From IMG/VR virus record IMGVR_UViG_3300031784_000013, positions 47,143-111,142 of that record: a DNA stretch of 64,000 nt; one strand, written 5' to 3'. The DNA is from a virus. Each line of letters begins with the position of its first letter. Positions within the stretch are counted from its first letter, which is position 1. The notes below the pieces were generated by a model. The model worked only from the letters and a program-made list of their open reading frames with translations. It was not told the DNA's origin and made no database searches. A program made the position numbers and the translations under genes. Shown here one piece after another: positions 323 to 64,000 of this stretch.

Positions 323-589
323 TTATTTATATTTTAGAAGTTTTACTTTACTAGCTATTTGACATACGCTATATGGTTTAGCGTAATCTGGGTTACAATA
401 CTTATATGTCAAGATTCTTCTGTAATTAAGAAGATCTATCATAGTTGTATATGGGACAGGCATATTCAATGCAAACACAGTGTTGTTGTAAAGATTCTTT
501 GCAACTTCTGTAATCTTACATTCGATATCCTGTAACAATGTTGGGATATCAACACACTCAGGGCAAGAAGTTAATCTAGGTTGTAACAT
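323..589 (-). CDS. Hypothetical structural-operon protein (probable start MLQPRLTSCPEC at 589)
   Basis: ORF 323..661; start moved to 589 because a separate small ORF occupies 592..723. Confidence 0.65.
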   Translation of the reverse strand: MLQPRLTSCPECVDIPTLLQDIECKITEVAKNLYNNTVFALNMPVPYTTMIDLLNYRRILTYKYCNPDYAKPYSVCQIASKVKLLKYK

Positions 590-591
590 GT

Positions 592-723
592 CTATTGATT
601 TTGAGTGGTGGGTGGTTGTACTGTGAGTTCTTCTTTCTTCTTGTTTGCACAGAATGCGCACATCCCATTTTTGAGATTACATCCACATCCTACACTTGCC
701 CCACAGCTTGAACACTTTGCCAT
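592..723 (-). CDS. Small Cys-rich protein, 43 aa (MAKCSSCGASVGCGCNLKNGMCAFCANK...), possible Zn-binder
   Basis: Hand-translated; exactly fills the gap between neighbours; CxxC-CGC-CxxC. Confidence 0.6.
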   Translation of the reverse strand: MAKCSSCGASVGCGCNLKNGMCAFCANKKKEELTVQPPTTQNQ

Positions 724-724
724 A

Positions 725-1294
725 TTAATAATAAGTTGTTACGGTTGCGTAATTATTTCCTGAACATCCACAGTTGTTTCGTAAGAAGTTGTTCAGCATT
801 TTGTCAGCTTGAAGATACAATCTATTTGCTTCAACCGCAGCACAATTATTTGCTGCTGCTATAGCACCATTAATAAAGAATGATATAGTTGTTAGCTCCA
901 CCTTAGATTGCGTCTTAATTGCTCTATCACACTCCATCATGTCAAGTTTCATGAATGCCTCATCGAACTTCTCTTGAAGTCTTTCAGTACGCATTATAGT
1001 TCTCTCAACATAGTTTACGTTTGCTGGTGCTACTGAATACTTCAGATAGTAAATACCATCAGGGAGAGGGTCATTTATTCCAACTGGCGTAATTCCTAAA
1101 TTAGAAGATGAAAACACATTCACCTGATTAACAGTAAATGGAACGTTTACTATCCCAAAGTTTGGAACATTAACCTCCAAGTTTGGTGCAGAGACAGCTG
1201 GTGGAGTAGTTGGGTATGTAGATGCGTCAGCAACAGCCATTGTTAGCGTGTTGTATGTTGGAACTACAATAATGTCTAGTTGCAGAGTTGGCAT
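725..1294 (-). CDS. Putative virion structural protein (tail hub/ring-like)
   Basis: 189 aa ORF in structural operon; LPDGIYYLKYSV motif and C-terminal CGC resemble crAss-like tail proteins. Confidence 0.55.
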   Translation of the reverse strand: MPTLQLDIIVVPTYNTLTMAVADASTYPTTPPAVSAPNLEVNVPNFGIVNVPFTVNQVNVFSSSNLGITPVGINDPLPDGIYYLKYSVAPANVNYVERTIMRTERLQEKFDEAFMKLDMMECDRAIKTQSKVELTTISFFINGAIAAANNCAAVEANRLYLQADKMLNNFLRNNCGCSGNNYATVTTYY

Positions 1295-1310
1295 GGGAGT
1301 TATAAAGAAA

Positions 1311-1353
1311 ATGCCAGAGGATTTTGAGAACTAATCCTCTCACCCTCTGGCAT
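1311..1353 (-). terminator. Rho-independent terminator-like hairpin
   Basis: ATGCCAGAGG/CCTCTGGCAT stem followed by a T-run on the minus strand. Confidence 0.65.
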
Positions 1354-1382
1354 AGGTTGTAGAAATTTTAACTTACCTACTA

Positions 1383-2561
1383 TTAAGGAATCAAAGTGCT
1401 AGTAGTGGTAGTAGTTGTTGGAGGTGTAGAAGTTGTAGTGGTAGTAGTAGTGATACAAACATTGTTGTCAACTACAGTACCAAGAGCAGCTTCAAGAACA
1501 GCTTCAACAGCAGTAGAAATACCAGCGTTACCTGGAGTGGCAGCGTTAGGAACAGCAACAATCACCATGCTATCCTCATAGATATAATCACCCCACTGAT
1601 AAGCAGAACGGTCGTACTGATTGAACTTGATGTAATAGGTATCATAGATGGTACCAGTGGTTACATAAGTTTCAAAGTTCTCGTTGTAACCATTCATTCT
1701 GTACAAGTGCTTCAAGTAACCTGCCTGATAGCTGTAGAAGTTTTTCTCAAGTTGAGCAATTTCTTCAGCAGTACCAGTTGGGTAAGAAGCTCTCTGTACA
1801 ACAACAGGATCAGCAACAATATCACAATTGTCAGCAACAATGAAGTCAGCAGTGGTAGCAGGACCTTGGTATACGAAAGTACGGAAGTACATTCTGTCAT
1901 ATTCCCAAGGGAATGCAGCAATATCGCAAGGCTGACCATACTTGGTAAGAGGCTTACCAGAGATTCGAAGGATAGTTCCACCTACGTTCTCGAAAGTATA
2001 GAAATCAGACAATGTGATGTTGTCAGGGTTGTTACCAGGAGCAGCAAGGTTCAACTGATAGATGAACTGGTTGATCAACGCATTAGTGTTGACATCAGCG
2101 CAAGGATCAGCACCGCAATCGCAGCAAGGAGCTTGTACAGTTACAGAACGGGTGAAACCGTTGAAGTACAAGGTGTCAAGATAACTAGAATGACCTCTTA
2201 GAGTAAGGGTCACAATTTCTCCACACTGTACGTTCCAATCAGTTACATCAGTGATTTGGACAGCAGGAGTACCGCAACCTGATACTTTGTACCATTCAGT
2301 TACGTTAGATGAGCAACCAGAGCCAGAAGGGCAACCCTTGATTTTATCAGAACGCTTAGAGCCTTGTAGGTAGGTGTTTTGTCTACCTTGAGCTACATAG
2401 AAGTATGGAGCAGCAGCAATGTTAGCAGCTGTAGCCACACTGTAATCGTTTCTGAAGAAACCAACTTGACCAGCGGTTAGATCCTGTGTAGAACCAGTGC
2501 TAGGGAGCGAAGTTTGCCCTACTGGAACTACAAAAAGGGTGGTTAACGAGAAATCAGCCAT
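1383..2561 (-). CDS. Major structural protein (auxiliary capsid/decoration-like) with C-terminal poly-Thr tail
   Basis: 392 aa; downstream of MCP; followed by a terminator; ends CITTTTTTTSTPPTTTTTTSTLIP. Confidence 0.7.
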   Translation of the reverse strand: MADFSLTTLFVVPVGQTSLPSTGSTQDLTAGQVGFFRNDYSVATAANIAAAPYFYVAQGRQNTYLQGSKRSDKIKGCPSGSGCSSNVTEWYKVSGCGTPAVQITDVTDWNVQCGEIVTLTLRGHSSYLDTLYFNGFTRSVTVQAPCCDCGADPCADVNTNALINQFIYQLNLAAPGNNPDNITLSDFYTFENVGGTILRISGKPLTKYGQPCDIAAFPWEYDRMYFRTFVYQGPATTADFIVADNCDIVADPVVVQRASYPTGTAEEIAQLEKNFYSYQAGYLKHLYRMNGYNENFETYVTTGTIYDTYYIKFNQYDRSAYQWGDYIYEDSMVIVAVPNAATPGNAGISTAVEAVLEAALGTVVDNNVCITTTTTTTSTPPTTTTTTSTLIP

Positions 2562-2586
2562 TTTTTTGTTTGTTTGTTAAGTTTAT

Positions 2587-3318
2587 TTATTCATTTGTCT
2601 GTATTCTGAACTGGGCACTTTGTACCGCAGAAGCATTCTCTGTATACATTGCAAGGTTCTGGACGGTTAAATCAACTAACTCATCTTCCAGATAAGCTTC
2701 AAGTTCACAGTTAACATCCGTAGATGGTTGGCCGTCAAACCTGATATAGCCTGTCTTATCAATGTAGATTGGATATCTCATATAAGAGATGTATATATCA
2801 TTAGGAGTGAACGTTCCGTCTGTGAATATACTAATTTCATCTGAGGAGAGGAAATTAAATGTCTCTTGATATTCGAAAGATGGCTTATAGTGAACGTTGT
2901 TCAATAAGAACTGCAAATCACCATGTTTTGCCAAGTCTTTGTTTATCCAAATTTGTCGATCCTTGCACACTCCCTTGTCAGCTAGAATATAACTGTCAAT
3001 GTAGAACATGTACTTTGGATCAAGCGTATCAATATCAGCTGTCCACTGATTTAATGTTTGGTTCTTTAGATGTAATGGTAACTTACCACGATTGTAATTA
3101 ATTACAAGTCTTTGCAAGTCTTCATAACGCTTTTTGAAAGCGTCCATTCCCATTCCATTGACAACACTAAATCCATCAACCTTCTGTTTGATAAGCTTTA
3201 TCTGAGCCTCATTCAAGGCTAAGATTTTATCTTCGAGTTGAATCTGCTGATGCTCATTAGTCGATAGTTTATTTAGTTTTTGATCAATTTTATATAATAA
3301 ACTATCTACAGGTATCAT
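2587..3318 (-). CDS. Head-tail adaptor / tail ring protein (crAss-like)
   Basis: 243 aa; position after MCP; ALNEAQ, YMRYP and CEL motifs reminiscent of crAss-like ring proteins. Confidence 0.6.
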   Translation of the reverse strand: MIPVDSLLYKIDQKLNKLSTNEHQQIQLEDKILALNEAQIKLIKQKVDGFSVVNGMGMDAFKKRYEDLQRLVINYNRGKLPLHLKNQTLNQWTADIDTLDPKYMFYIDSYILADKGVCKDRQIWINKDLAKHGDLQFLLNNVHYKPSFEYQETFNFLSSDEISIFTDGTFTPNDIYISYMRYPIYIDKTGYIRFDGQPSTDVNCELEAYLEDELVDLTVQNLAMYTENASAVQSAQFRIQTNE

Positions 3319-4283
3319 ACAGAAGCGAGTTTCTTAGATTTCAACTTTTGTTCTAGAGTGATTAGTTCGTCCTGATTATCATCATTAGCTAAGAACTTCA
3401 CCAACTCTTCTTCATCTTTTGCCACTTCATATTCACCTTCAAAGACACGTCCACTGGACTTAACTCTGTAAACTGAATGTGCAATAGCTTGCTTAACCAA
3501 ATCTTTGATATGGAGTAAATTTTCCTTCATGTCTGCAAATCTGTTAAACACTTCGATTGTTGACAATCCTTGGTATTTACCAGACTTGAATTCAGTCTGC
3601 TTGAGAATGTTATCCACTTGATTGTATACAAAATCTTCTTTAGAATCTTCTGTAACTGGAAGTCCTAAAAGTCTTGCAACTTTTCTTTTCTTCTCAGGAG
3701 ACATTGTATCAAACTTGGAGATTGCCTTGTTGATCAATTGCTTCTTCTTGAAGATTACAGCATTTTCGATATCATCATCTACAACGTAGAATTGTGTATC
3801 TGCTGGATAGTCACCTCTTTCCCATGCTTGGTAAGAACTAGCAACAGTTGGATGAACTCTCAACCAAGAGAACGCAAGTTCTTGAAAAGGTACTGTCAAA
3901 TCGAAGTAGTTATCACCATCAAGAAGTTTTACAGTTTGGACGTGAGTAGTGTCATCCGCAGATTTTGATAAGCCGTAGTTCCAGAAAATAGCTCTTGGTC
4001 CAAGATCTATTCCTCCTAAAGCATTTTCAAGTTTCTCTCTTAGTTCTTTTACACGTTCAACTTCTAGCTCACGCTCAGTAGGATCTGCAATTCTTTTGAT
4101 GTAAGCAGCGTCAGGATCTAAACCTGTTCTGTATCGTCCATCAAGTTCCTTGTAAGGATATTTAAAAACTCCAGTTCCTGGAATTCTTGATAGTCCTCTT
4201 TGTGATAATCCTCCTTGCATGGTTTGCATGCCAGCACTGTTGTACTCCTTCTTAATCGTGGAGATTTTCCCTAATTTACCCAT
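3315..4283 (-). CDS. Conserved crAss-like capsid-module protein of unknown function
   Basis: 322 aa ORF directly downstream of MCP. Confidence 0.65.
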   Translation of the reverse strand: MGKLGKISTIKKEYNSAGMQTMQGGLSQRGLSRIPGTGVFKYPYKELDGRYRTGLDPDAAYIKRIADPTERELEVERVKELREKLENALGGIDLGPRAIFWNYGLSKSADDTTHVQTVKLLDGDNYFDLTVPFQELAFSWLRVHPTVASSYQAWERGDYPADTQFYVVDDDIENAVIFKKKQLINKAISKFDTMSPEKKRKVARLLGLPVTEDSKEDFVYNQVDNILKQTEFKSGKYQGLSTIEVFNRFADMKENLLHIKDLVKQAIAHSVYRVKSSGRVFEGEYEVAKDEEELVKFLANDDNQDELITLEQKLKSKKLASV

Positions 4284-46188: not shown

Positions 46189-46260
46189 GCCTCCTAAGCA
46201 TAAATGGTGATGCGTCTGATTTGTACTCAGAATAACAGGGTTCGATTCCTTGAGGAGGCT
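46189..46260 (+). tRNA. trnT: tRNA-Thr(UGU)
   Basis: GCCTCCT/AGGAGGC acceptor; GCAT/ATGC D stem; TCTGA-TTTGTAC-TCAGA anticodon arm; CAGGG-TTCGATT-CCTTG T arm; CCA not encoded. Confidence 0.92.
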
Positions 46261-46266
46261 CAATAA

Positions 46267-48875: not shown

Positions 48876-49010
48876 GCTGAGTTTTAGTTGAGTGTGTTGT
48901 TGACCATGTAAAAAGTTTTGGTCTCTTGTAGTTGGACTTTTTAAAAAAATTGATGTTGTAACGCACGTGCTTAGAGCACATAATTAAAAAAATGATATAT
49001 AATATGATGG

Positions 49011-49283: not shown

Positions 49284-49285
49284 GT

Positions 49286-52945: not shown

Positions 52946-54130
52946 TTAATAAGTTTTATTCAATATGAAAATATCACTGTATATACTGTTTCCTGTACTT
53001 GCTGCACCCCACTGAAGGGTAACATCTAACGTATTACTAATTGTTGTATTAAAGGTAGTGCTATTGACCGTGTTGAATGCAAAACCTTCAACTACACCAT
53101 TCACTGTTTTAGTATAATGGAATCCACCTAGAGTGACAATTGATGCTACACCAGCAGCCCCTAGTTGTCTAATAGTGAAATCTATATTCAAATTAAACAC
53201 ATTATTTGTGATGTTCGTAATAGGTTGAGCTCCACTGTCAAGAAAAATTACAGAACCTGACTTTACTCTAACTCTTATTGTTTGATTATTTGTAGCAGTT
53301 AGAAGTCCACCAAATACAGCTCTAAAGCTATCTCCTACAGAGAATCCATTAGCAGGAACAGTAAGAGTTCCTACACCACCATTGATCAAGCTAGTTTCTG
53401 TAGTGGTGTTAGTGATTATAGTGCTGTTTGCTGTCTGAGCAAATAGTCCATAATTTGCTGATCCTGGAAGTGTTGGTGATGTTCCTGAAGATCCGCTTGT
53501 ACCAGCTGAACCTGAAGTTCCTGATGAACCATCAAGGCCATTTAATAAAATCCAACCACTAAGTGAAGATGGTTCATTTGTATTATTATTTATGGTTGAT
53601 TGGTATGAAAATAAACCATCTATAACCATATCACCATTCATATAAGTTGTTCCCGATACATAAGCACCTTTGAATGGAGATGTTCCTGATGTCCCCCTAG
53701 TACCTGATGTTCCAGAAGTACCAGAAGATCCATCTCCACCAGCTGCTCCATCTAGGTTAACAGTCCATGAAGAATATGTTCCACTTCCTGTAACAGTAAC
53801 AGGACCACCAACCACCATTACACCAGTGTTGATGTCATAGCTTACAACTGTACAAGTTTGGTGGTTACCAACATTGTAAGTTATAATAATATCTTGAGCA
53901 GGAGTGTAAGCTAGGCCAGGTTCTACGACAATTGTTGTAGTTACACCTAATGTAAACTCAGTGGTGGAGGTAGTTCTAAATCTATCACCATCATATCCAG
54001 ATGTGCCAGACGTGCCACTAGTACCAGAAATGGTACATAGTTGACAAGAAGCTTTGTCTAACTGCTTTGATATTTGCCAAAGCAAGTTAGATTCTTGACT
54101 CCAACCAATTTGTTTGTTAGGTACACCCAT
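52946..54130 (-). CDS. Fibre/decoration protein with Gly-Thr-Ser collagen-like repeats and CBM5/12-like module
   Basis: Three (SGT)n blocks; FKGAYVSGTTY..GDMV...W module; beta-rich C-terminus. Confidence 0.7.
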   Translation of the reverse strand: MGVPNKQIGWSQESNLLWQISKQLDKASCQLCTISGTSGTSGTSGYDGDRFRTTSTTEFTLGVTTTIVVEPGLAYTPAQDIIITYNVGNHQTCTVVSYDINTGVMVVGGPVTVTGSGTYSSWTVNLDGAAGGDGSSGTSGTSGTRGTSGTSPFKGAYVSGTTYMNGDMVIDGLFSYQSTINNNTNEPSSLSGWILLNGLDGSSGTSGSAGTSGSSGTSPTLPGSANYGLFAQTANSTIITNTTTETSLINGGVGTLTVPANGFSVGDSFRAVFGGLLTATNNQTIRVRVKSGSVIFLDSGAQPITNITNNVFNLNIDFTIRQLGAAGVASIVTLGGFHYTKTVNGVVEGFAFNTVNSTTFNTTISNTLDVTLQWGAASTGNSIYSDIFILNKTY

Positions 54131-55079: not shown

Positions 55080-57245
55080 GTGATTAATATAGAGAAAAGT
55101 AGAATTGAATTCTTAGAAGAACCATTCGACCAAACTACTAGTGAGGAGGAAAAATTTAAAATCTTATACCTAGCTCCACATCTATCAACAGGTGGTATGC
55201 CATCAGTGCTACTCAAGAGAATACAAGCTTTTGAGGGACTTGATTCAGATATTATTGTTGTTGAGTATTCTAATCACAGCGATGAATACGTTGTGCAGAA
55301 GAATGAAATCAAGAAGCTTGCTACAAAGATGTACACACTTGGTGAGAACAAGATGGAGCTCATAGACATCATCAAGAGACACAATATAGATATTGTACAT
55401 GTTGAAGAGATGGTTGAGGATGGTGTCAATAACTTCCCCATAGAACTTGTCAATGAGCTCTACGATAACGACAGAACTTGGAAGATTGTGGAGACATGTC
55501 ACAATGTTTATTTCAAGCCTGACATAGAAAAGAAGTATCATCCTGATGCTTATGTGTTCTGTACACCATATCACCTACAGACATTTGAGAACATGCCTTC
55601 TCAGAAGTTTGTTCTAGAATATCCAATAGAGAATAAAATTCCGTCAAAAGCAGAAAAGCTTTATGAAAAGATTATGCTTGGTATGGACCCACAGAAGAAG
55701 CATGTACTAAACGTAGGACTGTGGACACAAGGAAAGAATCAGGGAGAAGGTGTTGAGATAGCAAGACAACTTCCTGATATGGAGTTTCACTTTGTAGGAA
55801 ACCAAGCAATCAACTTCAAACACTATTGGGAACCATTGATGGTTGATCTACCAGCTAATGTACATGTGTGGGGAGAACGTAGTGATGTTGATAAGTTTAT
55901 GACAGCCTGTGACATCTTCATGTTTAACTCTACATGGGAATGCAATCCGTTGGTTGTTCGTCAAGCAGCTAGTCATGGTTTACCAATACTAGCAAGGGAT
56001 CTTCCTCAGTATTGTGGAATGTTTGATGATTGGATTACGCCCTTGAAAGAAGATGATGTATTGAATCAACTTCTATCAATCACCGCACCAACCAAGAAAC
56101 CAATTAGCGAAGCACTATTTAACTTCAAGGTGGCTCAGATGATGATTTATAATGCCGTCTTCACTAATGATATGATGCTTCAGAAGATGAATCTAAATTT
56201 CAACTTTGTCAGACAACCGTTTCTAGAAATCACTGGTAGATCAAATAAAGAATACAGGACAAAGTTCTATGATGAAAACGACATTTGTCTCTACGAGAAT
56301 ACAATAAAAGCAAATCATTGGGTGAAGGCCAATAGACAGTGGTTTACAGAATGGAAGGTCAAAGTGTGGGAGAATGACAAACTCATACATGATTACAAGC
56401 TTGACTATACTGATCAACGTGTCTACATATCACTAGAAAGCTCTTCTCTAGGAGATAGCATAGCGTGGATTCCGTATGTAGAGGAGTTCAGAAAAAAGCA
56501 CAACTGTCATGTTATTGTCAGCACGTTCAAGAACTTCTTGTTTGAGAGTGTGTATCCAGAGCTAGAGTTTGTTGAGCCTGGAACAGTGGTGAATAACATC
56601 TTTGGAATGTATTTGATAGGATGGTTTTACGATAGCTCTAGAGAACCAGTGGAACCAAACACTATTCCTCTACAGAAGGCAGCTACAAACATCTTAGGGC
56701 TTGAGTATAAAGAGATTAAGCCTAGGATTGCACACACTGTTTGTAACAAATTTGATAATAAATTTGTTACAATCGCTACCAACTCAACAGCTGGTTGTAA
56801 GTTCTGGACTAGAGAAGCTTGGCAAAAATTGATTAACTATCTCACTGCAAAAGGATACAGAGTGATCAATGTTTCACTAGAGGACAACCCATTTGAAAAC
56901 TGTGAACCTTTAGAAGACAAATCGATGCAGAACACTATGGATGCTATTGCCTGTAGCCAATTCTTCATAGGACTATCTAGTGGACTGTCATGGTTAGCGT
57001 GGGCACTCAATGTTCCTGTTGTAATGATTGCAAACTTCACAGAAGACAATCATGAGTTTGAGTGCATACGAGTGACAAAAAAGAATGTGTGTCACGGATG
57101 CTGGAACAGCTCTAAGTACAGATTTGATAAAGGAGACTGGAACTGGTGTCCTGTACACAAGGGTACAGATAGAATGTTTGAGTGTCAGACAAGCATAGTT
57201 GCAAGTGATGTGATCAGTTTAATTGAAGATCACTCACTTGTCTAG
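55080..57245 (+). CDS. GT4-like glycosyltransferase fused to Aah/TibC-family (autotransporter) protein O-heptosyltransferase
   Basis: N-half PHLSTGGMP...K.Q...SxWECNP (GT-B); C-half SSLGDSIAW catalytic-Asp motif, FIGLSSGLSWLAWA, and four Fe-binding-type Cys in CHGCW...WNWCP...FEC. Confidence 0.85.
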   Translation: MINIEKSRIEFLEEPFDQTTSEEEKFKILYLAPHLSTGGMPSVLLKRIQAFEGLDSDIIVVEYSNHSDEYVVQKNEIKKLATKMYTLGENKMELIDIIKRHNIDIVHVEEMVEDGVNNFPIELVNELYDNDRTWKIVETCHNVYFKPDIEKKYHPDAYVFCTPYHLQTFENMPSQKFVLEYPIENKIPSKAEKLYEKIMLGMDPQKKHVLNVGLWTQGKNQGEGVEIARQLPDMEFHFVGNQAINFKHYWEPLMVDLPANVHVWGERSDVDKFMTACDIFMFNSTWECNPLVVRQAASHGLPILARDLPQYCGMFDDWITPLKEDDVLNQLLSITAPTKKPISEALFNFKVAQMMIYNAVFTNDMMLQKMNLNFNFVRQPFLEITGRSNKEYRTKFYDENDICLYENTIKANHWVKANRQWFTEWKVKVWENDKLIHDYKLDYTDQRVYISLESSSLGDSIAWIPYVEEFRKKHNCHVIVSTFKNFLFESVYPELEFVEPGTVVNNIFGMYLIGWFYDSSREPVEPNTIPLQKAATNILGLEYKEIKPRIAHTVCNKFDNKFVTIATNSTAGCKFWTREAWQKLINYLTAKGYRVINVSLEDNPFENCEPLEDKSMQNTMDAIACSQFFIGLSSGLSWLAWALNVPVVMIANFTEDNHEFECIRVTKKNVCHGCWNSSKYRFDKGDWNWCPVHKGTDRMFECQTSIVASDVISLIEDHSLV

Positions 57246-57440
57246 TCCATACTTAATCCACTTGTACCAGATTCTCTCATGAATAAAGTATTGCAGGGGT
57301 TTCCATAGTAATTCAACTATGCTAAACCCTGCACTTACAGATATCGATCCTGTAATAAACCACATTGCACAGAAGCCAATGGCTGTACTAATTATTCTGT
57401 AGCTTATAGTTTTGGCAATGTGTCGTTTATAACTTACCAT
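57234..57440 (-). CDS. DUF2061 small membrane protein
   Basis: RH.AKT.SYR...K...YF.HER.W. Confidence 0.8.
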   Translation of the reverse strand: MVSYKRHIAKTISYRIISTAIGFCAMWFITGSISVSAGFSIVELLWKPLQYFIHERIWYKWIKYGLDK

Positions 57441-57813
57441 CTTTTCTCATCTGTTCTCTAATCTCTGTTGCAGATATGGCTTTAACTTCCTCTGGGGGAA
57501 CATGTTCTATTACATCATAACCAACACCTCTACCAATATTGATTGATTCAATGTTAGGTATTTTCATAATGCTAAGCTTACCAGATTCAACTAGATCCTT
57601 TAACTCAACAGACAAGTTAATAAGTATCTCTTGTGCTGTCCAAGGATTTCTTTCATCTACAGGAACATCTCTTATACATAGCAAAACTTTCTTGTCTTCA
57701 TTTAAAGCTTGATCAATTAGCCATCTGTGTCCTGTGTGCCAAGGTTGCCATCTACCAATGAACATTGCCCATTCTCCTGATTTGCCAGAAGCTTTTGCCA
57801 ATAAGTTTTGCAT
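57427..57813 (-). CDS. HxGH nucleotidyltransferase (cytidylyltransferase-like / minimal ATP-sulfurylase candidate); probable start MQNLL
   Basis: FIGRWQPWHTGH; GRGVGY; ISATEIR. Confidence 0.75.
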   Translation of the reverse strand: MQNLLAKASGKSGEWAMFIGRWQPWHTGHRWLIDQALNEDKKVLLCIRDVPVDERNPWTAQEILINLSVELKDLVESGKLSIMKIPNIESINIGRGVGYDVIEHVPPEEVKAISATEIREQMRKDGKL

Positions 57814-58556
57814 ATAGTTAACGCTGTTTTTAATGAATGTTGAGGTGCCCATCCAGGCATCCAATGTCTTGGATCACTACATGTGTAGAATTGATATCCT
57901 TCTGGTATAACTGACGCATCATGATAAGTGTATTCAATCCCTAATGCTTCTGCAATATATTCAAAGCTATGTGCAGCTCCAAGTCCCACATCATATTTAT
58001 TTCCTGAAACAACATCGTAATGTGCTAAGGCATAGAGGTTAGCAGATATTATATCCTCTACATATACGAAGTCACGCTTAGGTTCACCAGGAAAAAGTTT
58101 AGCACTTCCTGCTTTCATCATTTGATAAGCCATAGATGACATTGCACCTTTGTGCTCTTCTCCTGGCCCATAGACATTAAAGTATCTAAGAGCTACACCA
58201 CCATTACTGATTACATATTGCTCAGCTACATACTTACTCCAACCGTATAGATTAGATGGATGACTACCATTAATTCCATAGGATGCAGCAGAAGAAGAAT
58301 ATACGATGGGTTTTCTATTCAGCTTACACCAGTCTGTTAATAGCTTTGTAGATTCAAAGTTGACAGTCATCATGTAGTTGACATCTTTCTCTAAAGTGTT
58401 TGAGCATGCTCCTACATGAAAAACAACATCTGGTTTGTGCTCGTCTAACCATTCAATTGTAGCAAGTGCATCTTCATTAATCTCTAAAGGATTGTCGAAA
58501 TGCATCTTTAGGTTACCCCCTATGAAACCATTAGTTCCTGTGATTAATACTTTCAT
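57717..58556 (-). CDS. hldD: ADP-L-glycero-D-manno-heptose 6-epimerase-like SDR
   Basis: TGTNGFIG, FHVGACSNT, YSSSAASYG, YGWSK, LRYFNVYGPGEEHKG.M.S, YQFYT. Confidence 0.88.
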   Translation of the reverse strand: MKVLITGTNGFIGGNLKMHFDNPLEINEDALATIEWLDEHKPDVVFHVGACSNTLEKDVNYMMTVNFESTKLLTDWCKLNRKPIVYSSSAASYGINGSHPSNLYGWSKYVAEQYVISNGGVALRYFNVYGPGEEHKGAMSSMAYQMMKAGSAKLFPGEPKRDFVYVEDIISANLYALAHYDVVSGNKYDVGLGAAHSFEYIAEALGIEYTYHDASVIPEGYQFYTCSDPRHWMPGWAPQHSLKTALTICKTYWQKLLANQENGQCSLVDGNLGTQDTDG

Positions 58557-59299
58557 GGTGTGCTCACGCCTCGTTTAGATACAACAATAGAACACATCTC
58601 GTTAGCGAAGGTGATGGAGTTTGCAATATCTTCCCCTTGTAAATATCTTACAGCAAACGCTGCAAGGAATGTATCTCCAGCTCCTGATACATCTATTGTT
58701 TCTTTTGCTTGTACAGGATAGAGAGTGTTCATATACTTAGCCCCTTTGTTTCCTAGTGTAGCAATCATCTTTGATAACAGCACTACTTCACTGGTTTGAT
58801 TCTTGTTAAACTCTTCCTCGTTAAGCTTGACAAATGTGTAGGCTAGAATTGTTTCTGGAGACAGTTTCTTTTTTGTATCTAGAAAACTTTTATCAGCAAG
58901 TGTGGCTATTTCATAAAGCATTTCTTCTGTAAGGAAGCCTTTGTTATAGTCAGACACAATTACAGCATCAGCCTGTTTGATTAATTGTTTCCTACTTTCT
59001 GTTAGCGTGAACTGTGACATAGTTTCATACTCTTCCTCATCCACTCTAAGAAACATGTGATTGCTCGACTTATCTACATACCTGGTCTTCACTATCACTT
59101 CTTGCTGATGAATACAATCAATCTCATATTCATTTGTAATAGCCTTTATGTTTCTTTCAACATTACCAGCCATTCCTTTTGACACATGTTTTTCTATAGG
59201 TGTGAATACAGGAACAGGAGCTTCAGGACTTAACCTTTTGCATTCTCCGTAAATAAAAACATCGTGACAGAGTTCACCTATTACTACTATCTTTTTCAT
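58553..59299 (-). CDS. hldA: D-glycero-beta-D-manno-heptose-7-phosphate kinase (RfaE domain I)
   Basis: RLSPEAPVPV, GMAGNV, KTR, SDYNKG, DVSGAGDT. Confidence 0.9.
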   Translation of the reverse strand: MKKIVVIGELCHDVFIYGECKRLSPEAPVPVFTPIEKHVSKGMAGNVERNIKAITNEYEIDCIHQQEVIVKTRYVDKSSNHMFLRVDEEEYETMSQFTLTESRKQLIKQADAVIVSDYNKGFLTEEMLYEIATLADKSFLDTKKKLSPETILAYTFVKLNEEEFNKNQTSEVVLLSKMIATLGNKGAKYMNTLYPVQAKETIDVSGAGDTFLAAFAVRYLQGEDIANSITFANEMCSIVVSKRGVSTP

Positions 59300-59675
59300 A
59301 TTCTAGTATTGATGTAGTGGACATGTTATCCACCCTATCGAAATATATAATCTTTGGTATAAACTCAGCTCCTACAATTCTTTTACCCTTGTAATCAGAG
59401 CCAATGACCATTGCATCTGGTTCATACAATCTAATCTGTTCTACTAGTTCCTCCTCACTGTCAAACCCCACAACATCATTTACAAAACGTAGAGATGTTA
59501 GGAATTCTTTTCTGTGATTAAAACAGTTAAAGGGTCTTGTAGAACCCTTTAGCTTCTTTATCCTATCGTCTGCATCTATCCCCACTCTAACATGTCCAAT
59601 GCTTGATGCATGTTGCAATAGCTTCAAGTGTCCTATGTGTAACACATCAAATGCTCCATTCACCCATATCTTCAT
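59274..59675 (-). CDS. hldC: Heptose-1-phosphate adenylyltransferase (RfaE domain II)
   Basis: NGAFDVLHIGH, KLKGSTRP, GSDY, STT. Confidence 0.88.
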   Translation of the reverse strand: MKIWVNGAFDVLHIGHLKLLQHASSIGHVRVGIDADDRIKKLKGSTRPFNCFNHRKEFLTSLRFVNDVVGFDSEEELVEQIRLYEPDAMVIGSDYKGKRIVGAEFIPKIIYFDRVDNMSTTSILEYEKDSSNR

Positions 59676-59974
59676 ATCTCTTCTATCCGTTTTGTTTTAT
59701 CACAGATGAGTAAGTCATAGGATGGTTTGTGGTTCATGATCACCTCACTATACTTACAGTTCCAGTCGCTAAGCTGTTTCACTGTCAAACTAGTGTGGTC
59801 AATTTTAGATGATTGTCCTCTAGCAGTCCAGTAAACTATCTTATGCCCCTCATCGAATAAAGCATTAATCTTATCAATGTTCTCTAGTATAGGAGTGGAG
59901 TGTTGATAGTTGCTTCCTTGCGTGTGGCAGATGGTACCATCTATGTCTACATAAATAACTAATCTCCCTTCCAT
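59672..59974 (-). CDS. Small HAD-family phosphatase
   Basis: YVDIDGTIC, WTARG, KP.YD..ICDK. Confidence 0.8.
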   Translation of the reverse strand: MEGRLVIYVDIDGTICHTQGSNYQHSTPILENIDKINALFDEGHKIVYWTARGQSSKIDHTSLTVKQLSDWNCKYSEVIMNHKPSYDLLICDKTKRIEEI

Positions 59975-60348
59975 ATCCTGTAGCTATCTGAATCAAAGTG
60001 CTCTGTGCTCACTTCAAATATCTCCCCATCTTCCAATGCCTCTAGTTGATGAGGAGTTCCTGGATGTTGTGTTACAACATCCCCAAAATTCAAGTAAGTA
60101 ATATGAGTCACTCCTTTTTCTGTATCTATCCAACGATAGATGAATGTTCCCTTATTGACATACCAGGTTTCTTGCTTAAGTATGTGATAGTGCATTGAGA
60201 ACTTACATCCAGCTTTGAACACTAATATCTTTCCACAATACTTTTCAGAATTGTGTATGATGAGTTCATGTCCCCAACCTTTGGGTATTTTGCATTCAGA
60301 GCACTCGTGAACGTTTTTGATTGACATACTGATTGACTTGTTTAACAC
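59959..60348 (-). CDS. Cupin sugar-isomerase-like protein (mannose-6-P / D-lyxose isomerase-like)
   Basis: KGWG.E, YCGK, SMHYH..K.ETW, PH, EVST.H.D.DSYR. Confidence 0.8.
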   Translation of the reverse strand: MLNKSISMSIKNVHECSECKIPKGWGHELIIHNSEKYCGKILVFKAGCKFSMHYHILKQETWYVNKGTFIYRWIDTEKGVTHITYLNFGDVVTQHPGTPHQLEALEDGEIFEVSTEHFDSDSYRIWKGD

Positions 60349-60739
60349 ATTCTTCTACTAACAGATCTGATGTATTTAAAGAGAGGGCATTCTCTTCCAA
60401 TAAATTTAATTCAAAATCTTTAACATGAAACTGTTCTCTACCCCTAGTATCATCGTAGTGTAAAAATACCCAGGCTACATCTTCAGTAAGGCTATTAAGA
60501 TAGTCTCTAGCTTCTTTATATGGATAAACAAGAGACAAGGTAACATCATCTTCTTGACTGTTTAAGTAGTGGGCGATATCACTCGCTCTATTTAAATTTT
60601 TAATTCGTCCCTCTCTACTGTAATCTTTATTAGCAAATAACTCTCTAAGCTCATCACCATCTATGTTTTTGTACGTAGAGAATTGCTTTGCTAATGTTGT
60701 CTTTCCACTATGTGGTTGACCAAAAAAAACAAGTATCAT
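60296..60739 (-). CDS. cysC: Adenylylsulfate (APS) kinase-like
   Basis: GQPHSGKTT, IDGDELR, DYS.EGR..N. Confidence 0.75.
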   Translation of the reverse strand: MILVFFGQPHSGKTTLAKQFSTYKNIDGDELRELFANKDYSREGRIKNLNRASDIAHYLNSQEDDVTLSLVYPYKEARDYLNSLTEDVAWVFLHYDDTRGREQFHVKDFELNLLEENALSLNTSDLLVEECVKQVNQYVNQKRSRVL

Positions 60740-61536
60740 GGTATAATGTGATTAAATTCTTCAAATTTTTCTTTAGGGATGCATGCACAGTCAAGACATT
60801 TACCACTCTCTGTTTGATATGGTATACCTTCTTGAAATTGTTTTACTACATATCCTAATGATTCTATCTTAGCTTTTAGTTGTTCTCCTGATGTTCCTTG
60901 TTCTTTGAGTAAGTGGTCTTCAAACTCTATGAACATGTAAGGTCTATGTTTATTAATAGTTTCTTTAGCACCATCAATAACACGCGATTCGTATCCTTGC
61001 ACATCTATTTTTATAAATGCAATGTCATTAAACGTATAACTATCCAAAGTTCTTTGCTGAACTGTGTCTCCTTCATAGTTACCAACTCTTACATCTCCAA
61101 AGTTAACTTCTTGTTTGCTGTGGTAGTCAGGAGTCTGTATAATAACTTCTTCATCAATACCATCTCCAATTGCTAAATTATAGCAATATACATTGTCTAA
61201 TCCATTAAGGAATACATTAGAACACAATTGATAATAGATGATGCGTTGTGGTTCAAAACTAAACACTCTACCATGGTCACCAACTAAATGAGAGAAGTCT
61301 ACAGCAAAGTTACCATTATTAGCTCCTATATCAATAATATCTTTCCCTTCACAATCTATTTGATTTCTATCAAGGAAATCAAACATATACTTCTCATACT
61401 GCCACCCCTGTATAATAGAACTTGTTACAGCATTATCATTAGGAAATAATGCATACGTTAGTCTATTAGTCTGAAAAGCATTTTTAAAGTCCTTTTTATC
61501 AAGTTGATATAAGCCTATTTGAAACTTTGTTTTCAT
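60736..61536 (-). CDS. FkbM-family methyltransferase
   Basis: IDIGANNG, SFEPQ, IKIDVQGYE, RP...IE. Confidence 0.9.
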   Translation of the reverse strand: MKTKFQIGLYQLDKKDFKNAFQTNRLTYALFPNDNAVTSSIIQGWQYEKYMFDFLDRNQIDCEGKDIIDIGANNGNFAVDFSHLVGDHGRVFSFEPQRIIYYQLCSNVFLNGLDNVYCYNLAIGDGIDEEVIIQTPDYHSKQEVNFGDVRVGNYEGDTVQQRTLDSYTFNDIAFIKIDVQGYESRVIDGAKETINKHRPYMFIEFEDHLLKEQGTSGEQLKAKIESLGYVVKQFQEGIPYQTESGKCLDCACIPKEKFEEFNHIIP

Positions 61537-62357
61537 TACTTGCTGTATCTAAATCGATCGTAGAACCATTTATAATTAGTGTAAATCCAATCTGTAACAT
61601 CCTTACCTAATAGTTGTTTAGCTTTAGAAGGAACAGGCTCTAATTTAGTTCTGATAACATGATCACCAAATGTACCATACACCTCATCATCTTCTTTTGT
61701 TACCTGCTCTATATTATCAAAGTCATGTTGGAAATGAGGTATTTCTAAGTATCTATATATCCTCATCATCTCTGTATCAGGGTATAGGCAAAGGTCTTCA
61801 AATTTTACAAACAACATCTTGCTATCTAGGCCCATTCTAAATATCTCAGAAAGTCTTTCAAAAGCTAGTCCTACAGGAGGTTGCTGTGCCCAGATATCTA
61901 TTCTCTTAGGAACTGTTGTTCCTTGTCCTTTAGACCAATCTAATATATCAGATTGTTTCTCTGGGTGCTTTCTAAAGTTATTCTCCATAGAAGCAAATAT
62001 ATCACGTGGATCTCTCACCATACATATAATCTTTGGATCTTCTCCTTGTACAAACTTCAGGAAGTCATAATGTATCCCCCATCCTCTACTCTTATCTACA
62101 ACATATTTCTTATGTGTAATAGCATTGTAAAAAGCGTCCATACCAGCTTTAGCAAAAGCTTGCCAACCTACTTTCATCAGCTCAACATCTTGTGCTTTAA
62201 ACTCAGGAGAATTAGTATAATTTGCACGTGCTCCAAATATAAGTTCAAGGACACCACTTGTAGGTGTAGCATATACATCAGGGTTTTGAGCCAAGATGTT
62301 TTGCAATAATGTGCTTCCAGCTCTAGGTAGAGAACTTTGGTAAAATATTTTATCCAC
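61536..62357 (-). CDS. Sulfotransferase
   Basis: LPRAGSTLL 5'-PSB loop; DKSRGW; VRDPRDIFAS 3'-PB; FEDL. Confidence 0.9.
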   Translation of the reverse strand: MDKIFYQSSLPRAGSTLLQNILAQNPDVYATPTSGVLELIFGARANYTNSPEFKAQDVELMKVGWQAFAKAGMDAFYNAITHKKYVVDKSRGWGIHYDFLKFVQGEDPKIICMVRDPRDIFASMENNFRKHPEKQSDILDWSKGQGTTVPKRIDIWAQQPPVGLAFERLSEIFRMGLDSKMLFVKFEDLCLYPDTEMMRIYRYLEIPHFQHDFDNIEQVTKEDDEVYGTFGDHVIRTKLEPVPSKAKQLLGKDVTDWIYTNYKWFYDRFRYSK

Positions 62358-62363
62358 GTTGGT

Positions 62364-63230
62364 TTATTTTAAAGAGTCAATTACATTTTTTACATTAAAT
62401 ATTTCAGATTCGTTATTGTAAGGGAACTCAATAGGATCTCCTCCAATGTTGTACTTACTTAAATACGCATTACGTAACTCAGGAGACGTAGTTTCTGGGT
62501 TGGCTATAACGTTTGTATGTATATCATAACCAAACACATTAGGACTATTAACAATCCACAACACTGTAGAAGGCTTGTTGAGAGCAGCTGCTGCATGTTG
62601 ACCAAAACTATCCATTAACAATCTCTTCTCACTCAAGGTGATAAGAACTAGTAATGCTCTAAATGTATCAGATACACCAAATGTTCCATCATATTTTATT
62701 TGGTCATCTCTCCTGATATGTACAATGTTATACTGCTCCTTAAATTCATTAATAACATTTTCTATTAGGTAGCCAGGAATGTCTCTAGCCCATGAATACT
62801 TTTGTTCTGACTCAGCACCACCGTTAGTTTGCATCAAAAAAATAGGTTTATCAGAAACAAATTTCTTAGAGAAGAAATCCACTTCTCTTTGTGTAAGAAA
62901 TAGTTCTCCAACAGTTCTGGTAACTGGTAAATCATACAATTTACACCATGTTTCAATAAGATGCTCTTCTTGCTTAATATGCTTTGCTTCTAAATAGGGA
63001 TCATGTCCAAATACTATAACTTCTTGGTTCTCAATGTATTCTTTGTAGAAATATGCCTGTTGACCAAACGCATAAGCTCTATCAACATTTTTGTTTCCAA
63101 GAAACACTTCAGGATATCCTGACACAACAATTAGTTTGTCGTTTGGATACTTCTCTTTGATAGAAACACAAATGGCAGTACCAGCAATCACCTTGCCAAT
63201 ACCGCCATTGATTTGAAATATGATATTCAT
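62364..63230 (-). CDS. GT9-like (ADP-heptose-type) glycosyltransferase
   Basis: GGIGK N-terminal loop; DSFGQHAAAAL.KPS.VLW; FGY..H.N. Confidence 0.75.
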   Translation of the reverse strand: MNIIFQINGGIGKVIAGTAICVSIKEKYPNDKLIVVSGYPEVFLGNKNVDRAYAFGQQAYFYKEYIENQEVIVFGHDPYLEAKHIKQEEHLIETWCKLYDLPVTRTVGELFLTQREVDFFSKKFVSDKPIFLMQTNGGAESEQKYSWARDIPGYLIENVINEFKEQYNIVHIRRDDQIKYDGTFGVSDTFRALLVLITLSEKRLLMDSFGQHAAAALNKPSTVLWIVNSPNVFGYDIHTNVIANPETTSPELRNAYLSKYNIGGDPIEFPYNNESEIFNVKNVIDSLK

Positions 63231-63604: not shown

Positions 63605-64000
63605 TTATTTGTTTAAGATTAATTGTTCTAATTTACTAATTCTATCTTCTAAAGATATATTTTTTTCTGCTAATTCTTGAATAGCTTTTGTTAATATAGG
63701 AATTATTTGATTTGGGTTTAAACTTAATGCTGTATTTTCATCATTTGATTCTCCTACAGCTTCAGGTATAATTAATCTAACTTCTTGAGCAATAAATCCT
63801 AGTTGTTTTCTGTATCCTCTTGTTTTACTTGTTTCTTCATTCCAATTAAAACTAACAGGATTTAATTTTTTAACATCTCCTAATCCATATTCTATATTGC
63901 AAATATTTGTTTTTAATCTACCATCAGAAAAAAATGGTATTATTTCACCACCTGCACCAATTTCTAATCCAAATCCAACAAATGGAGCAAGATTATCTGC
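63605..64000 (-). CDS. Tail fibre C-terminus with peptidase S74 intramolecular chaperone (partial)
   Basis: Hand-translated: SDGRLKTNI...LNPVSFNW...GFIAQEV..IIPEAV...KAIQEL coiled coil. Confidence 0.88.
   Translation of the reverse strand, partial: ADNLAPFVGFGLEIGAGGEIIPFFSDGRLKTNICNIEYGLGDVKKLNPVSFNWNEETSKTRGYRKQLGFIAQEVRLIIPEAVGESNDENTALSLNPNQIIPILTKAIQELAEKNISLEDRISKLEQLILNK

What the first reader, a model, noticed from the sequence alone, without database searches (positions are those of the whole stretch)
55080..57245. Phage-encoded Aah/TibC-type protein heptosyltransferase fused to a second GT-B domain
The C-half retains the LGD catalytic motif, GLSSGLSWLAWA and the four-Cys signature (CHGC, WCP, FEC) of bacterial autotransporter heptosyltransferases. 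The N-half is a separate GT4-like transferase. It is the only plus-strand gene in the island and converges on the ADP-heptose operon. No autotransporter gene is present in the window, so the acceptor is probably a different protein. The fusion suggests priming plus extension to a disaccharide.
Basis: partly seen in the sequence, partly recalled or inferred. Interest (0 to 1): 0.8.

Follow-up and report, generated by a model that had tools for sequence, protein, structure and literature searches.

The report
Phage TibC-like fibre glycosyltransferase with heptose supply
An uncultured 111-kb phage encodes one protein joining two sugar-adding enzymes, one a true relative of the E. coli adhesin-glycosylating enzyme TibC. 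It sits beside the phage's own ADP-heptose genes and a serine-rich collagen-like tail fibre, so it probably coats that fibre with heptose, although no sugar has been measured.

Summary
ORF 55080-57245 (+) encodes 721 aa: a GT4-type GT-B domain, then a beta-barrel and a GT9 domain that scores 262.7 bits on TIGR04414 (Aah/TibC; cut-off 200). It superposes on TibC at TM 0.85.

The catalytic Asp (D459), phosphate- and heptose-binding T570/K574/W638 and all four iron-finger Cys are invariant in 38 relatives. TibC's adenine-contact Arg and its beta-hairpin thumb are missing.

No autotransporter target repeat exists in the genome. The record's ends overlap by 141 nt. This closes a ~1479-aa fibre gene (Pro-free Gly-Ser/Thr collagen repeats, a 15-residue Gly/Ser/Asn repeat, an S74 chaperone) that heads the same minus-strand gene string.

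In 13 of 15 dereplicated phage lineages with enough flank, the GT4-BAHT gene converges on such a collagen-like gene. Conversely, 10 of 44 phage records with these repeats encode a BAHT, against 0 of 50 random records.

This scan reached the same enzyme-fibre pairing before on other phage DNA. What is new here is an ADP-heptose cassette between enzyme and fibre, plus an Aah-like Ser at the heptose stereoselectivity site. Both speak to which sugar is used.

Nothing has been tested at the bench.

The parts
55080..57245 (+). Gene for the 721-aa bifunctional glycosyltransferase (P0001); GTG start, stop codon at 57243-57245
55146..56174 (+). GT4-type GT-B domain (about residues 23-365). It has K219 and E287; the second Glu of the EX7E motif is Gln295.
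   Evidence: Pfam PF00534 36.2 bits and PF13692; Foldseek to BshA, WaaG, PimB', MshA; motif counts
56175..56417 (+). BAHT-type N-terminal beta-barrel (about residues 366-446)
   Evidence: Seven strands at 370-440 in the AF2 model; the TibC superposition spans 372 alignment columns (TibC chain 4rap_D, 381 residues); TIGR04414 matches from residue 391
56418..57242 (+). BAHT (TibC/Aah-type, GT9) catalytic domain. Holds D459 (56454-56456), T570, K574, S633 (56976-56978) and W638.
57090..57185 (+). Iron-finger segment with C671, C674, C690 and C702
   Evidence: Aligned to TibC C339/C342/C358/C370; invariant in 38 of 38 sequences
57234..57440 (-). DUF2061 small membrane protein. It converges on and overlaps the transferase gene by 12 nt, and travels with the sulfation genes in other lineages.
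57427..57864 (-). NMNAT-like HxGH nucleotidyltransferase. It is linked to the APS-kinase-like and sulfotransferase genes in 12 related loci.
57717..58556 (-). HldD-like ADP-glycero-manno-heptose 6-epimerase, with intact GxxGxxG and YxxxK motifs
   Evidence: TIGR02197 E 2.6e-49, 168 bits, below the cut-off of 274.6; sequence
58553..59299 (-). HldA-like heptose-7-phosphate kinase (PfkB family)
   Evidence: TIGR02198 E 3e-40, below its cut-off
59274..59675 (-). HldC-like heptose-1-phosphate adenylyltransferase
   Evidence: TIGR02199 E 4e-26, below its cut-off
59672..59974 (-). 100-aa HAD phosphatase, a candidate stand-in for GmhB
59959..60348 (-). Cupin protein with weak mannose-6-phosphate-isomerase likeness. 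No SIS/GmhA gene is present anywhere in the genome.
60296..60739 (-). APS-kinase-like P-loop protein
60736..61536 (-). FkbM-family methyltransferase
   Evidence: TIGR01444 103 bits against a cut-off of 37.7
61536..62357 (-). Sulfotransferase
   Evidence: PF13469 E 1e-18
62364..63230 (-). 288-aa protein of unknown function that co-travels with the sulfation genes
63605..64000 (-). C-terminal end (Peptidase_S74 intramolecular chaperone) of the ~1479-aa collagen-like fibre. The rest of the gene is at genome positions 4185..1, across the record junction. This is the best candidate acceptor.
   Evidence: PF13884 E 7e-16; 141-nt end overlap, 139/141 identical; Collagen PF01391 45 bits on the main part; sequence
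52946..54130 (-). 394-aa protein with three Pro-free blocks of Gly-Ser/Thr triplets.
   Evidence: Collagen 23 bits, below its cut-off

Best explanation
The gene encodes a two-domain protein O-glycosyltransferase made by a crAss-/Cellulophaga-phage-like virus.

Shown: its C-terminal half is a structurally complete member of the TibC/Aah (BAHT) family, with beta-barrel, GT-B core, catalytic Asp and iron finger. Its N-terminal half is a GT4-type transferase.

Inferred: late in infection the BAHT domain transfers heptose from ADP-heptose onto Ser hydroxyls. The targets are the Pro-free Gly-Ser/Thr-Ser/Thr collagen-like repeats of the phage's own fibre proteins, chiefly the ~1479-aa fibre that heads the same gene string and probably also the 394-aa protein at 52946-54130.

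The ADP-heptose would come from the adjacent phage HldA/HldC/HldD-like cassette. It could be the L,D or the D,D form, because the stereoselectivity position carries the Aah-type Ser.

The fused GT4 domain then adds a further sugar to the same acceptor. The neighbouring FkbM methyltransferase, and the sulfotransferase with its APS-kinase-like partner, tailor the glycan.

The likely result is a glycan-coated fibre stalk. Glycosylation may stabilise a Pro-free triple helix or shield the fibre. That last step is speculation.
For: Family membership:
- TIGR04414 gives 262.7 bits against a cut-off of 200.
- TibC gives E 4e-48 by sequence and TM 0.85, rmsd 2.4 A by fold on a model of pLDDT 88.
- D459, T570, K574, W638 and the four Cys are invariant in 38 diverse relatives. 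Their roles in TibC come from PMC4358343.

Donor:
- HldD-, HldA- and HldC-like genes and a HAD phosphatase lie 0.5-2.7 kb away in the converging string.
- S633 matches Aah Ser-294, which tolerates ADP-L,D-heptose. This fits a phage-encoded 6-epimerase.
- HldD-like genes (E <= 1e-28) occur in 9 of 50 BAHT-encoding phage records, against 2 of 50 random ones. One of those two also carries a BAHT-like fragment.

Acceptor:
- No autotransporter target repeat exists in the genome.
- The fibre gene closes across the record ends and heads the string fibre, two unknowns, SulfoT, FkbM, APSK-like, cupin, HAD, HldC, HldA, HldD, NMNAT-like, DUF2061, which runs into the transferase gene.
- In IMG/VR, 50 of 80 related loci hold a protein with 8 or more consecutive G-X-Y triplets within 10 kb. 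X/Y is 22-49% Ser, 14-36% Thr and ~0% Pro in the long arrays of the neighbouring fibre genes; a few short runs in other ORFs fall outside these ranges.
- 59 of 63 such ORFs lie downstream and convergent, some only 6-50 bp away.
- After dereplication at 70% identity, 13 of 15 lineages with at least 5 kb of downstream flank have one.
- Reverse test: 10 of 44 phage records chosen only for (GGN WSN WSN)x8 encode a BAHT above the cut-off, against 0 of 50 random records, Fisher p = 2.7e-4.

Fusion:
- GT4+BAHT is the standing architecture, even in loci where the GT4 half is too divergent for tblastn.
- It is usually extended by a DxD domain and sometimes by a methyltransferase.
Against: - No sugar has been observed on any of these proteins. 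Every functional step is inference.
- Known BAHT acceptors are beta-helical autotransporter repeats, not collagen-like triplets.
- TibC modifies Ser and not Thr, while the repeats hold both.
- The Arg that contacts adenine N1 in TibC, and that is needed for its activity, is Thr619 here and in most phage relatives.
- The beta-hairpin thumb that builds the active TibC dodecamer is 10 residues shorter and has no hairpin in the model. Oligomeric state and nucleotide preference may therefore differ.
- Only 4 of 13 near-complete BAHT phage records carry an HldD-like gene. Most such phages must use host ADP-heptose or another donor.
- In this genome the fibre gene's 3' end (window 63605) is about 6.4 kb from the transferase gene and its start is beyond the record junction; it is not adjacent.
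- The second Glu of the GT4 EX7E motif is Gln in this clade.
- The loci are phylogenetically related and the control sets are small. I also left out one random-pattern contig (L274) that is itself a BAHT contig. Counting it as positive gives p = 2.3e-3.
Confidence: 0.55

Rival explanations
1. The enzyme is a BAHT-type protein glycosyltransferase acting on phage fibres, but the sugar it transfers is not heptose, or its nucleotide is not ADP. On this reading the Hld-like cassette feeds another transferase in the island, for example the unassigned 288-aa protein or the GT at 51753-52769.
For: The adenine-contact Arg-286 of TibC is replaced by Thr in 27 of 38 relatives. Most complete BAHT phage records lack an HldD-like gene. 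Within this phage's own lineage the Hld cassette is present in only 3 of the close relatives' loci and absent in others that keep the transferase and the sulfation genes.
Against: W638 (heptose O4 contact), T570 and K574 (beta-phosphate) and the Aah-type Ser633 are conserved. The cassette sits directly against this gene. HldD-like genes are mildly enriched in BAHT phages. Many hosts make ADP-heptose themselves.
Confidence: 0.2
2. The acceptor is a phage virion protein but not the collagen-like triplets. It could be the fibre's 15-residue Ser/Gly/Asn repeat region (consensus S-T-I-G-G-G-x-x-N-T-A-S-G-x-x), a probable beta-solenoid resembling autotransporter passengers. It could also be the poly-Thr tails on other structural proteins.
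For: BAHTs are known to recognise beta-helical strand-loop-strand repeats. The fibre's C-terminal 800 aa is a regular Ser-bearing repeat conserved in 8 orthologues. It has a weak beta-roll Pfam hit.
Against: Across lineages the common neighbour is the collagen-like array. Some partners are almost entirely G-X-Y, for example 2556 of 3117 residues. There is no TIGR04415 match. The solenoid model was of low confidence and found no structural match. TibC does not modify Thr.
Confidence: 0.13
3. The enzyme modifies host proteins or the host envelope (adhesins, autotransporters, S-layer or LPS core). The purpose would be to block superinfection or remodel the cell, as seroconverting phage glycosyltransferases do.
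For: All characterised BAHTs act on bacterial surface adhesins. GT9 relatives act on LPS. The gene lies on the opposite strand to the structural string, so it may be regulated separately.
Against: The BAHT-specific barrel and iron finger are kept, which argues against an LPS acceptor. The conserved convergent pairing with phage fibre genes across unrelated phage lineages and genome sizes of 30-326 kb is hard to explain by host targets. The reverse enrichment test gives the same signal.
Confidence: 0.1

Closest known systems
TibC-TibA and Aah-AIDA-I of E. coli (bacterial autotransporter heptosyltransferases, BAHT; TIGR04414; PDB 4RAP/4RB4; PMC4358343)
   Same: Same fold: beta-barrel, atypical GT-B core and four-Cys iron finger. 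It shares the catalytic Asp, the beta-phosphate Thr/Lys and the heptose-contacting Trp. It has the Aah-type Ser at the stereoselectivity site. It is about 32% identical to Aah-type enzymes encoded next to AIDA-I genes. It presumably O-glycosylates Ser in a long repetitive extracellular protein.
   Different: It is phage-encoded and fused to a GT4 domain. [quoted passage not shown] No autotransporter or TIGR04415 repeat is present. The likely acceptor is a Pro-free collagen-like fibre. The donor pathway is carried by the phage.
BimC-BimA of Burkholderia pseudomallei (a BAHT-family protein paired with a trimeric autotransporter; PMC6439308, seen by title and abstract only)
   Same: A BAHT-family protein is paired with a trimeric fibrous surface protein rather than a classical monomeric passenger.
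   Different: The system is bacterial, unfused and tied to actin-based motility. I did not compare sequences here.
Mycobacteriophage virion glycosylation (Freeman et al. 2023, Cell Host Microbe; recalled from my own knowledge, and cited by the papers listed)
   Same: Phage-encoded glycosyltransferases sit next to structural genes and modify the phage's own virion proteins.
   Different: Those enzymes belong to other transferase families and act on capsid and tail-tube C-termini in Actinobacteria phages. No BAHT, no heptose pathway and no collagen-like acceptor is involved.
BclA of the Bacillus anthracis exosporium and giant-virus fibril glycosylation (established knowledge, not tested here)
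   Same: Collagen-like G-X-Thr/Ser repeats lacking hydroxyproline carry O-linked glycans built by dedicated neighbouring genes. The glycan coats a hair-like surface layer.
   Different: The sugars differ (rhamnose/anthrose; viral bacillosamine and others), as do the transferases and the organisms.

Membership tests
BAHT (TibC/Aah, TIGR04414) | Profile score above the curated equivalog cut-off | tested here: met
   262.7 bits against 200, residues 391-716
BAHT (TibC/Aah, TIGR04414) | Catalytic base Asp-110 | tested here: met
   D459 in SLGD aligns to TibC D110; invariant in 38 of 38
BAHT (TibC/Aah, TIGR04414) | Donor contacts Thr-226 and Lys-230 (beta-phosphate) and Trp-305 (heptose O4) | tested here: met
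   T570, K574 and W638 are invariant
BAHT (TibC/Aah, TIGR04414) | Arg-286 contacting adenine N1 (ADP specificity; R286A is inactive in TibC) | tested here: not met
   It aligns to T619. That column holds T27, A5, V5 and R1 of 38. Arg is present only in the autotransporter-linked bacterial sequences
BAHT (TibC/Aah, TIGR04414) | Four-Cys 1Fe-0S iron finger (C339, C342, C358, C370) | tested here: met
   C671, C674, C690 and C702 are invariant. Metal binding itself cannot be tested here.
BAHT (TibC/Aah, TIGR04414) | N-terminal flattened beta-barrel packed on the GT-B core | tested here: met
   Strands at 370-440 in the model; 372 alignment columns against TibC chain 4rap_D (381 residues), TM 0.85
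BAHT (TibC/Aah, TIGR04414) | Beta-hairpin thumb with a hydrophobic tip (F265, V266) that builds the dodecamer | tested here: not met
   The region is 10 residues shorter and lacks the GFVW tip. The model shows no hairpin between residues 598 and 615.
BAHT (TibC/Aah, TIGR04414) | Dodecameric ring assembly | not testable with these tools
   Needs purified protein (gel filtration or cryo-EM)
BAHT (TibC/Aah, TIGR04414) | Partner autotransporter with strand-loop-strand target repeats (TIGR04415) | tested here: not met
   No match at E <= 1 in the whole 111-kb genome, nor in the fibre proteins
BAHT (TibC/Aah, TIGR04414) | Transfer of heptose from ADP-heptose to Ser | not testable with these tools
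   Context only: an adjacent HldA/HldC/HldD-like cassette and the Aah-type Ser633
GT4 (Pfam Glycos_transf_1) | Profile score above the gathering threshold and a GT-B fold like solved GT4 enzymes | tested here: met
   PF00534 36.2 bits against 26.4 and PF13692 36.6 against 27; Foldseek E ~1e-10 to BshA, WaaG, PimB' and MshA
GT4 (Pfam Glycos_transf_1) | EX7E motif | tested here: inconclusive
   E287 is invariant. The second position is Q295 here and in 65 of 121 relatives, and Glu in 49.
Phage virion glycosylation systems | Transferase genes embedded in or abutting the structural module, with Ser/Thr-rich acceptor tracts on virion proteins | tested here: met
   The gene string is continuous with the fibre and large tail genes. 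Collagen-like and poly-Thr tracts occur on structural proteins.
Phage virion glycosylation systems | Glycan demonstrated on virion proteins | not testable with these tools
   The phage is uncultured

The most novel reading that the evidence does not exclude
This phage carries a self-contained pathway that builds a sulfated, methylated, heptose-containing glycan on Pro-free collagen-like fibres, giving a proteoglycan-like virion appendage. It supplies its own ADP-heptose (through a non-canonical route lacking GmhA) and its own activated sulfate. The GT4-BAHT module would be the conserved core of a widespread phage fibre-glycosylation system, evolved from, or ancestral to, the bacterial adhesin heptosyltransferases.
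Probability: 0.3. Interest if true: 0.8.

Novelty: new variant of a known kind. Interest (0 to 1): 0.6.

Why it matters
BAHTs are known only as virulence-associated enzymes that heptosylate autotransporter adhesins in Proteobacteria.

Here the same catalytic machinery appears in phages, always fused to a GT4 domain and paired with collagen-like fibres. The BAHT half has 726 clusters at E <= 1e-30 in a 1.8-billion-protein library, and most of the top 150 are multi-domain. I found no paper describing this.

If the inference is right, it widens the acceptor range of the family from beta-helices to triple-helical Ser repeats. It also adds a second, mechanistically distinct case of phage virion glycosylation. 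That bears on phage stability, receptor binding and immune recognition.

This window is especially useful because the donor question, left open in the scan's earlier notes on other phages, is addressed by an ADP-heptose cassette placed between enzyme and fibre.

A cultured phage, Microcystis phage Mel-JY01, carries a related BAHT domain inside a CDS annotated as a methyltransferase. This offers a bench system.

Tried and rejected
- Megablast of the island against cultured phages found nothing.
- A homodimer prediction of the BAHT half (complex prediction) returned 'no answer'. I draw nothing from it.
- I looked for the ~285-aa DxD domain that precedes the GT4 domain in most relatives. It has no homologue anywhere in this genome. 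It is also not related to the GT at 51753-52769.
- I tested whether the fibre or the 394-aa protein matches the canonical BAHT target repeat (TIGR04415) or AIDA-type families. They do not.
- An AF2 model of the fibre's 800-aa repeat region was of low confidence (pLDDT 57). Foldseek gave no match below E 0.5. The idea of an autotransporter-like beta-solenoid therefore rests on the sequence repeat alone.
- Searching for a phage GmhA (SIS domain) found none.
- A scan of bacterial genomes gave the full fusion in only four MAG contigs, named Sediminibacterium, Chitinophaga, Muiribacterium and Bacteroides. These may be binned phage DNA. At most they hint at a Bacteroidota host, and I do not claim one.
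Full report
**What is there**

The window is the right-hand 64 kb of a 111,142-bp IMG/VR virus record estimated at 96% complete. The record encodes a portal, large terminase, major head protein, DNA polymerase and rIIA/rIIB-like proteins. Its terminase is closest to Leptolyngbya phage Lbo-JY46 (40% identity). Next come Cellulophaga phi4:1-like phages (32%) and crAss-like phages (25%).

ORF 55080-57245 (+) is the only long plus-strand ORF between 47231 and 64000. It starts at a GTG directly after a TAA. No ATG precedes the conserved first beta-strand. A 99%-identical metagenome protein has the same length.

**Domain identity**

- Pfam places Glycos_transf_1 at residues 204-319 and Glyco_transf_9 at 552-650.
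- NCBIfam's equivalog model for Aah/TibC (TIGR04414) scores 262.7 bits against a cut-off of 200 over residues 391-716.
- phmmer against PDB sequences finds TibC at E 4e-48.
- An AlphaFold2 model built on 38 relatives has pLDDT 88 and pTM 0.71.
- The C-half of the model superposes on TibC over 372 alignment columns (target chain 4rap_D, 381 residues), with TM 0.85 and rmsd 2.4 A. The N-half resembles the GT4 enzymes BshA, WaaG, PimB', MshA and HepE.

**Residue check against TibC**

I used the residue roles given by Yao et al. 2014 (PMC4358343).

| TibC residue | Role in TibC | Here |
|---|---|---|
| D110 | catalytic base | D459 |
| T226, K230 | beta-phosphate contacts | T570, K574 |
| W305 | heptose O4 contact | W638 |
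| C339, C342, C358, C370 | iron ligands | C671, C674, C690, C702 |

All of these are invariant in the 38-sequence alignment.

The stereoselectivity position is Pro-300 in TibC, which selects D,D-heptose. It is Ser-294 in Aah, which accepts both forms. Here it is Ser633, and it is Ser in 36 of 38 relatives.

Two features are not kept:
- Arg-286, which contacts adenine N1 and is needed for TibC activity, aligns to Thr619. Arg occurs at this position only in autotransporter-linked bacterial enzymes.
- The beta-hairpin thumb that links TibC dimers into the active dodecamer is 10 residues shorter, lacks the hydrophobic tip and forms no hairpin in the model.

In the GT4 half, K219 and E287 are invariant. 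The second Glu of EX7E is Gln in this clade and Glu in more distant relatives.

**Neighbours**

The transferase gene runs into a minus-strand string. In order from the transferase outwards it holds:
- DUF2061
- an NMNAT-like nucleotidyltransferase
- an HldD-like epimerase with intact GxxGxxG and YxxxK motifs
- an HldA-like kinase
- an HldC-like adenylyltransferase
- a 100-aa HAD phosphatase
- a cupin
- an APS-kinase-like protein
- an FkbM methyltransferase
- a sulfotransferase
- two proteins of unknown function

The Hld-like proteins hit the heptose-pathway models best (E 1e-26 to 1e-49), but all fall below the curated cut-offs. No SIS-type GmhA exists in the genome.

**The fibre across the junction**

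The first 141 nt of the record repeat its last 141 nt, with 139 of 141 identical. The truncated ORF at window 63605-64000 is a Peptidase_S74 chaperone (E 7e-16). It shares 47 residues with the end of the ORF at genome positions 4185..1. Together the two pieces form one gene of about 1479 aa, made of:
- an N-terminal domain
- blocks of Pro-free Gly-Ser/Thr-Ser/Thr triplets (Pfam Collagen, 45 bits)
- a long 15-residue Ser/Gly/Asn repeat
- the self-cleaving chaperone

This gene heads the same minus-strand string. It follows the very large tail genes.

TIGR04415 finds nothing in the whole genome. A repetitive, trimeric, Ser-rich fibre is nonetheless part of the same gene block.

**Comparative evidence**

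- The protein has thousands of metagenomic relatives, with 4818 hits among 8000 scored.
- Nearly all of the best 120 are annotated with both domains (GT4 in all; the weak GT9 Pfam match is missing from seven). About 75 are near 1000 aa, with an extra N-terminal DxD domain. About 21 are near 1140 aa, with a further methyltransferase. About 17 are near 700 aa, like this one.
- In IMG/VR, 168 stretches encode relatives.
- Loci that looked like stand-alone BAHTs also carry a divergent GT4 half.

Of the 80 loci fetched:
- 50 have a protein with at least 8 consecutive G-X-Y triplets within 10 kb. In the long arrays X/Y is 22-49% Ser, 14-36% Thr and ~0% Pro; a few short runs in other ORFs fall outside these ranges.
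- 59 of 63 such ORFs lie downstream and convergent.
- Several are 6-50 bp from the transferase gene.
- Some partners are giant. One is 3117 aa, 42% Ser, with a Collagen score of 1076 bits.
- After clustering the BAHT domains at 70% identity, 17 of 24 lineages have such a neighbour. Among lineages with at least 5 kb of downstream flank, 13 of 15 do.

For the reverse test, I chose phage contigs only for the DNA pattern (GGN WSN WSN)x8.
- Among these, 10 of 44 searchable records encode a BAHT above the cut-off, and 12 of 44 at E <= 1e-3.
- Among contigs picked by a random 14-mer, the figures are 0 of 50 and 1 of 50.
- Fisher p is 2.7e-4 and 4.9e-4 respectively.
- I chose control contigs of at least 10 kb. 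I left out L274, which is the same contig as BAHT locus L057. Counting it as a positive still gives p = 2.3e-3.

**Donor evidence**

Within this phage's own lineage, synteny is conserved from the poly-Thr mini-proteins through the transferase to the sulfation genes. The Hld cassette, however, is present in only three of the related loci (L003, L006, L050) and absent from others. It is therefore an optional insert placed exactly between enzyme and fibre.

Across 50 BAHT-encoding phage records, 9 hold an HldD-like gene at E <= 1e-28. Four of the 13 near-complete records do. Among 50 random records only 2 do, and one of those also has a BAHT-like fragment.

The sulfation set (DUF2061, NMNAT-like, APS-kinase-like, sulfotransferase and the 288-aa protein) accompanies the transferase in 13-14 loci. 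These include unrelated large phages where the set lies on the same strand in a different order.

**Reading**

Shown:
- a structurally complete BAHT-type domain fused to a GT4 domain in a phage
- adjacency to heptose-pathway, methylation and sulfation genes
- a strong, lineage-spanning genomic association with Pro-free Ser/Thr collagen-like fibre genes

Inferred:
- Ser O-heptosylation of the fibre repeats by the BAHT domain
- extension of the glycan by the GT4 domain
- tailoring by the methyltransferase and sulfotransferase

The loss of the thumb and of the adenine-contact Arg means the enzyme should not be assumed to be a dodecamer or to be strictly ADP-specific.

**Relation to earlier notes of this scan**

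After I had reached the enzyme-fibre pairing, a look-up showed that the scan had come to the same conclusion on several other phage genomes. Those notes left the sugar open. This window adds the linked ADP-heptose cassette and the Aah-type Ser.

Notes on this genome pointed me to the 394-aa protein and to the missing GmhA. I checked both.

**Literature**

Full-text searches found no paper that links BAHTs with phages or with collagen-like acceptors. The cultured Microcystis phage Mel-JY01 carries a 43%-identical BAHT domain at the end of a 1226-aa CDS annotated 'methyltransferase FkbM'. It lies beside an 18%-Ser structural protein.

**Verdict**

This is a new variant of a known enzyme family, not a new kind of system. 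It has already surfaced elsewhere in this scan. Its particular value here is the genomic evidence on which donor sugar is used.

Noticed in passing
window 63860-64000 and genome positions 1-141 (L082): The record's first and last 141 nt are 139/141 identical. The 'linear' IMG/VR record is therefore a closed, circularly permuted assembly, and the fibre gene spans the junction.
   Followed up: yes
window 57234-57864 and 60296-63230; loci L026, L029, L051, L078, L042, L004, L010, L054, L059: DUF2061, an NMNAT-like nucleotidyltransferase, an APS-kinase-like protein, a sulfotransferase and a 288-aa unknown travel together next to the GT4-BAHT gene. This holds in several phage lineages and in two different gene orders, which suggests a conserved glycan-sulfation module.
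   Followed up: partly
L061-L081, e.g. L074:8428-8802 (+): A ~124-aa DUF6165 protein (PF19662) follows many BAHT genes, often directly behind the stop codon. It was seen in 27 loci and is absent from this window.
   Followed up: partly
L320 (Microcystis phage Mel-JY01, PP395634.1) 4750-8430: A cultured cyanophage carries a BAHT domain at the C-terminus of a 1226-aa CDS annotated only as 'methyltransferase FkbM'. The upstream 508-aa 'structural protein' is 18% Ser.
   Followed up: partly
window 46189-46261: The only tRNA gene is tRNA-Thr(TGT), in a genome whose structural proteins carry many long poly-Thr tracts (genome ORFs at 35632-41262, 43611-45788, 48525-49703 and others).
   Followed up: no
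genome 1-2400 (L082), fibre residues ~600-1350: A regular 15-residue repeat, S-T-I-G-G-G-x-x-N-T-A-S-G-x-x, often with Cys, is conserved in 8 orthologues. It is probably a beta-solenoid, but the AF2 model was of low confidence and had no structural match.
   Followed up: partly
window 57717-57864: The listed ORFs for the NMNAT-like protein (TTG start at 57864) and the HldD-like gene overlap by 148 nt. Family matches to the NMNAT-like protein begin near residue 31, so its true start is probably further downstream.
   Followed up: no
L007:16593-18875 (-) and cluster mates in L011-L017, L028, L037, L043: In one group of BAHT-encoding large phages, 750-912-aa proteins with Hint/intein domains lie a few kb from the transferase gene.
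   Followed up: no
control record G086 (197 kb; locus L267): The only random-control phage record with a BAHT-like fragment (E 4e-32, below the cut-off) is also the only one with a bona fide HldD (287 bits, above the cut-off).
   Followed up: no
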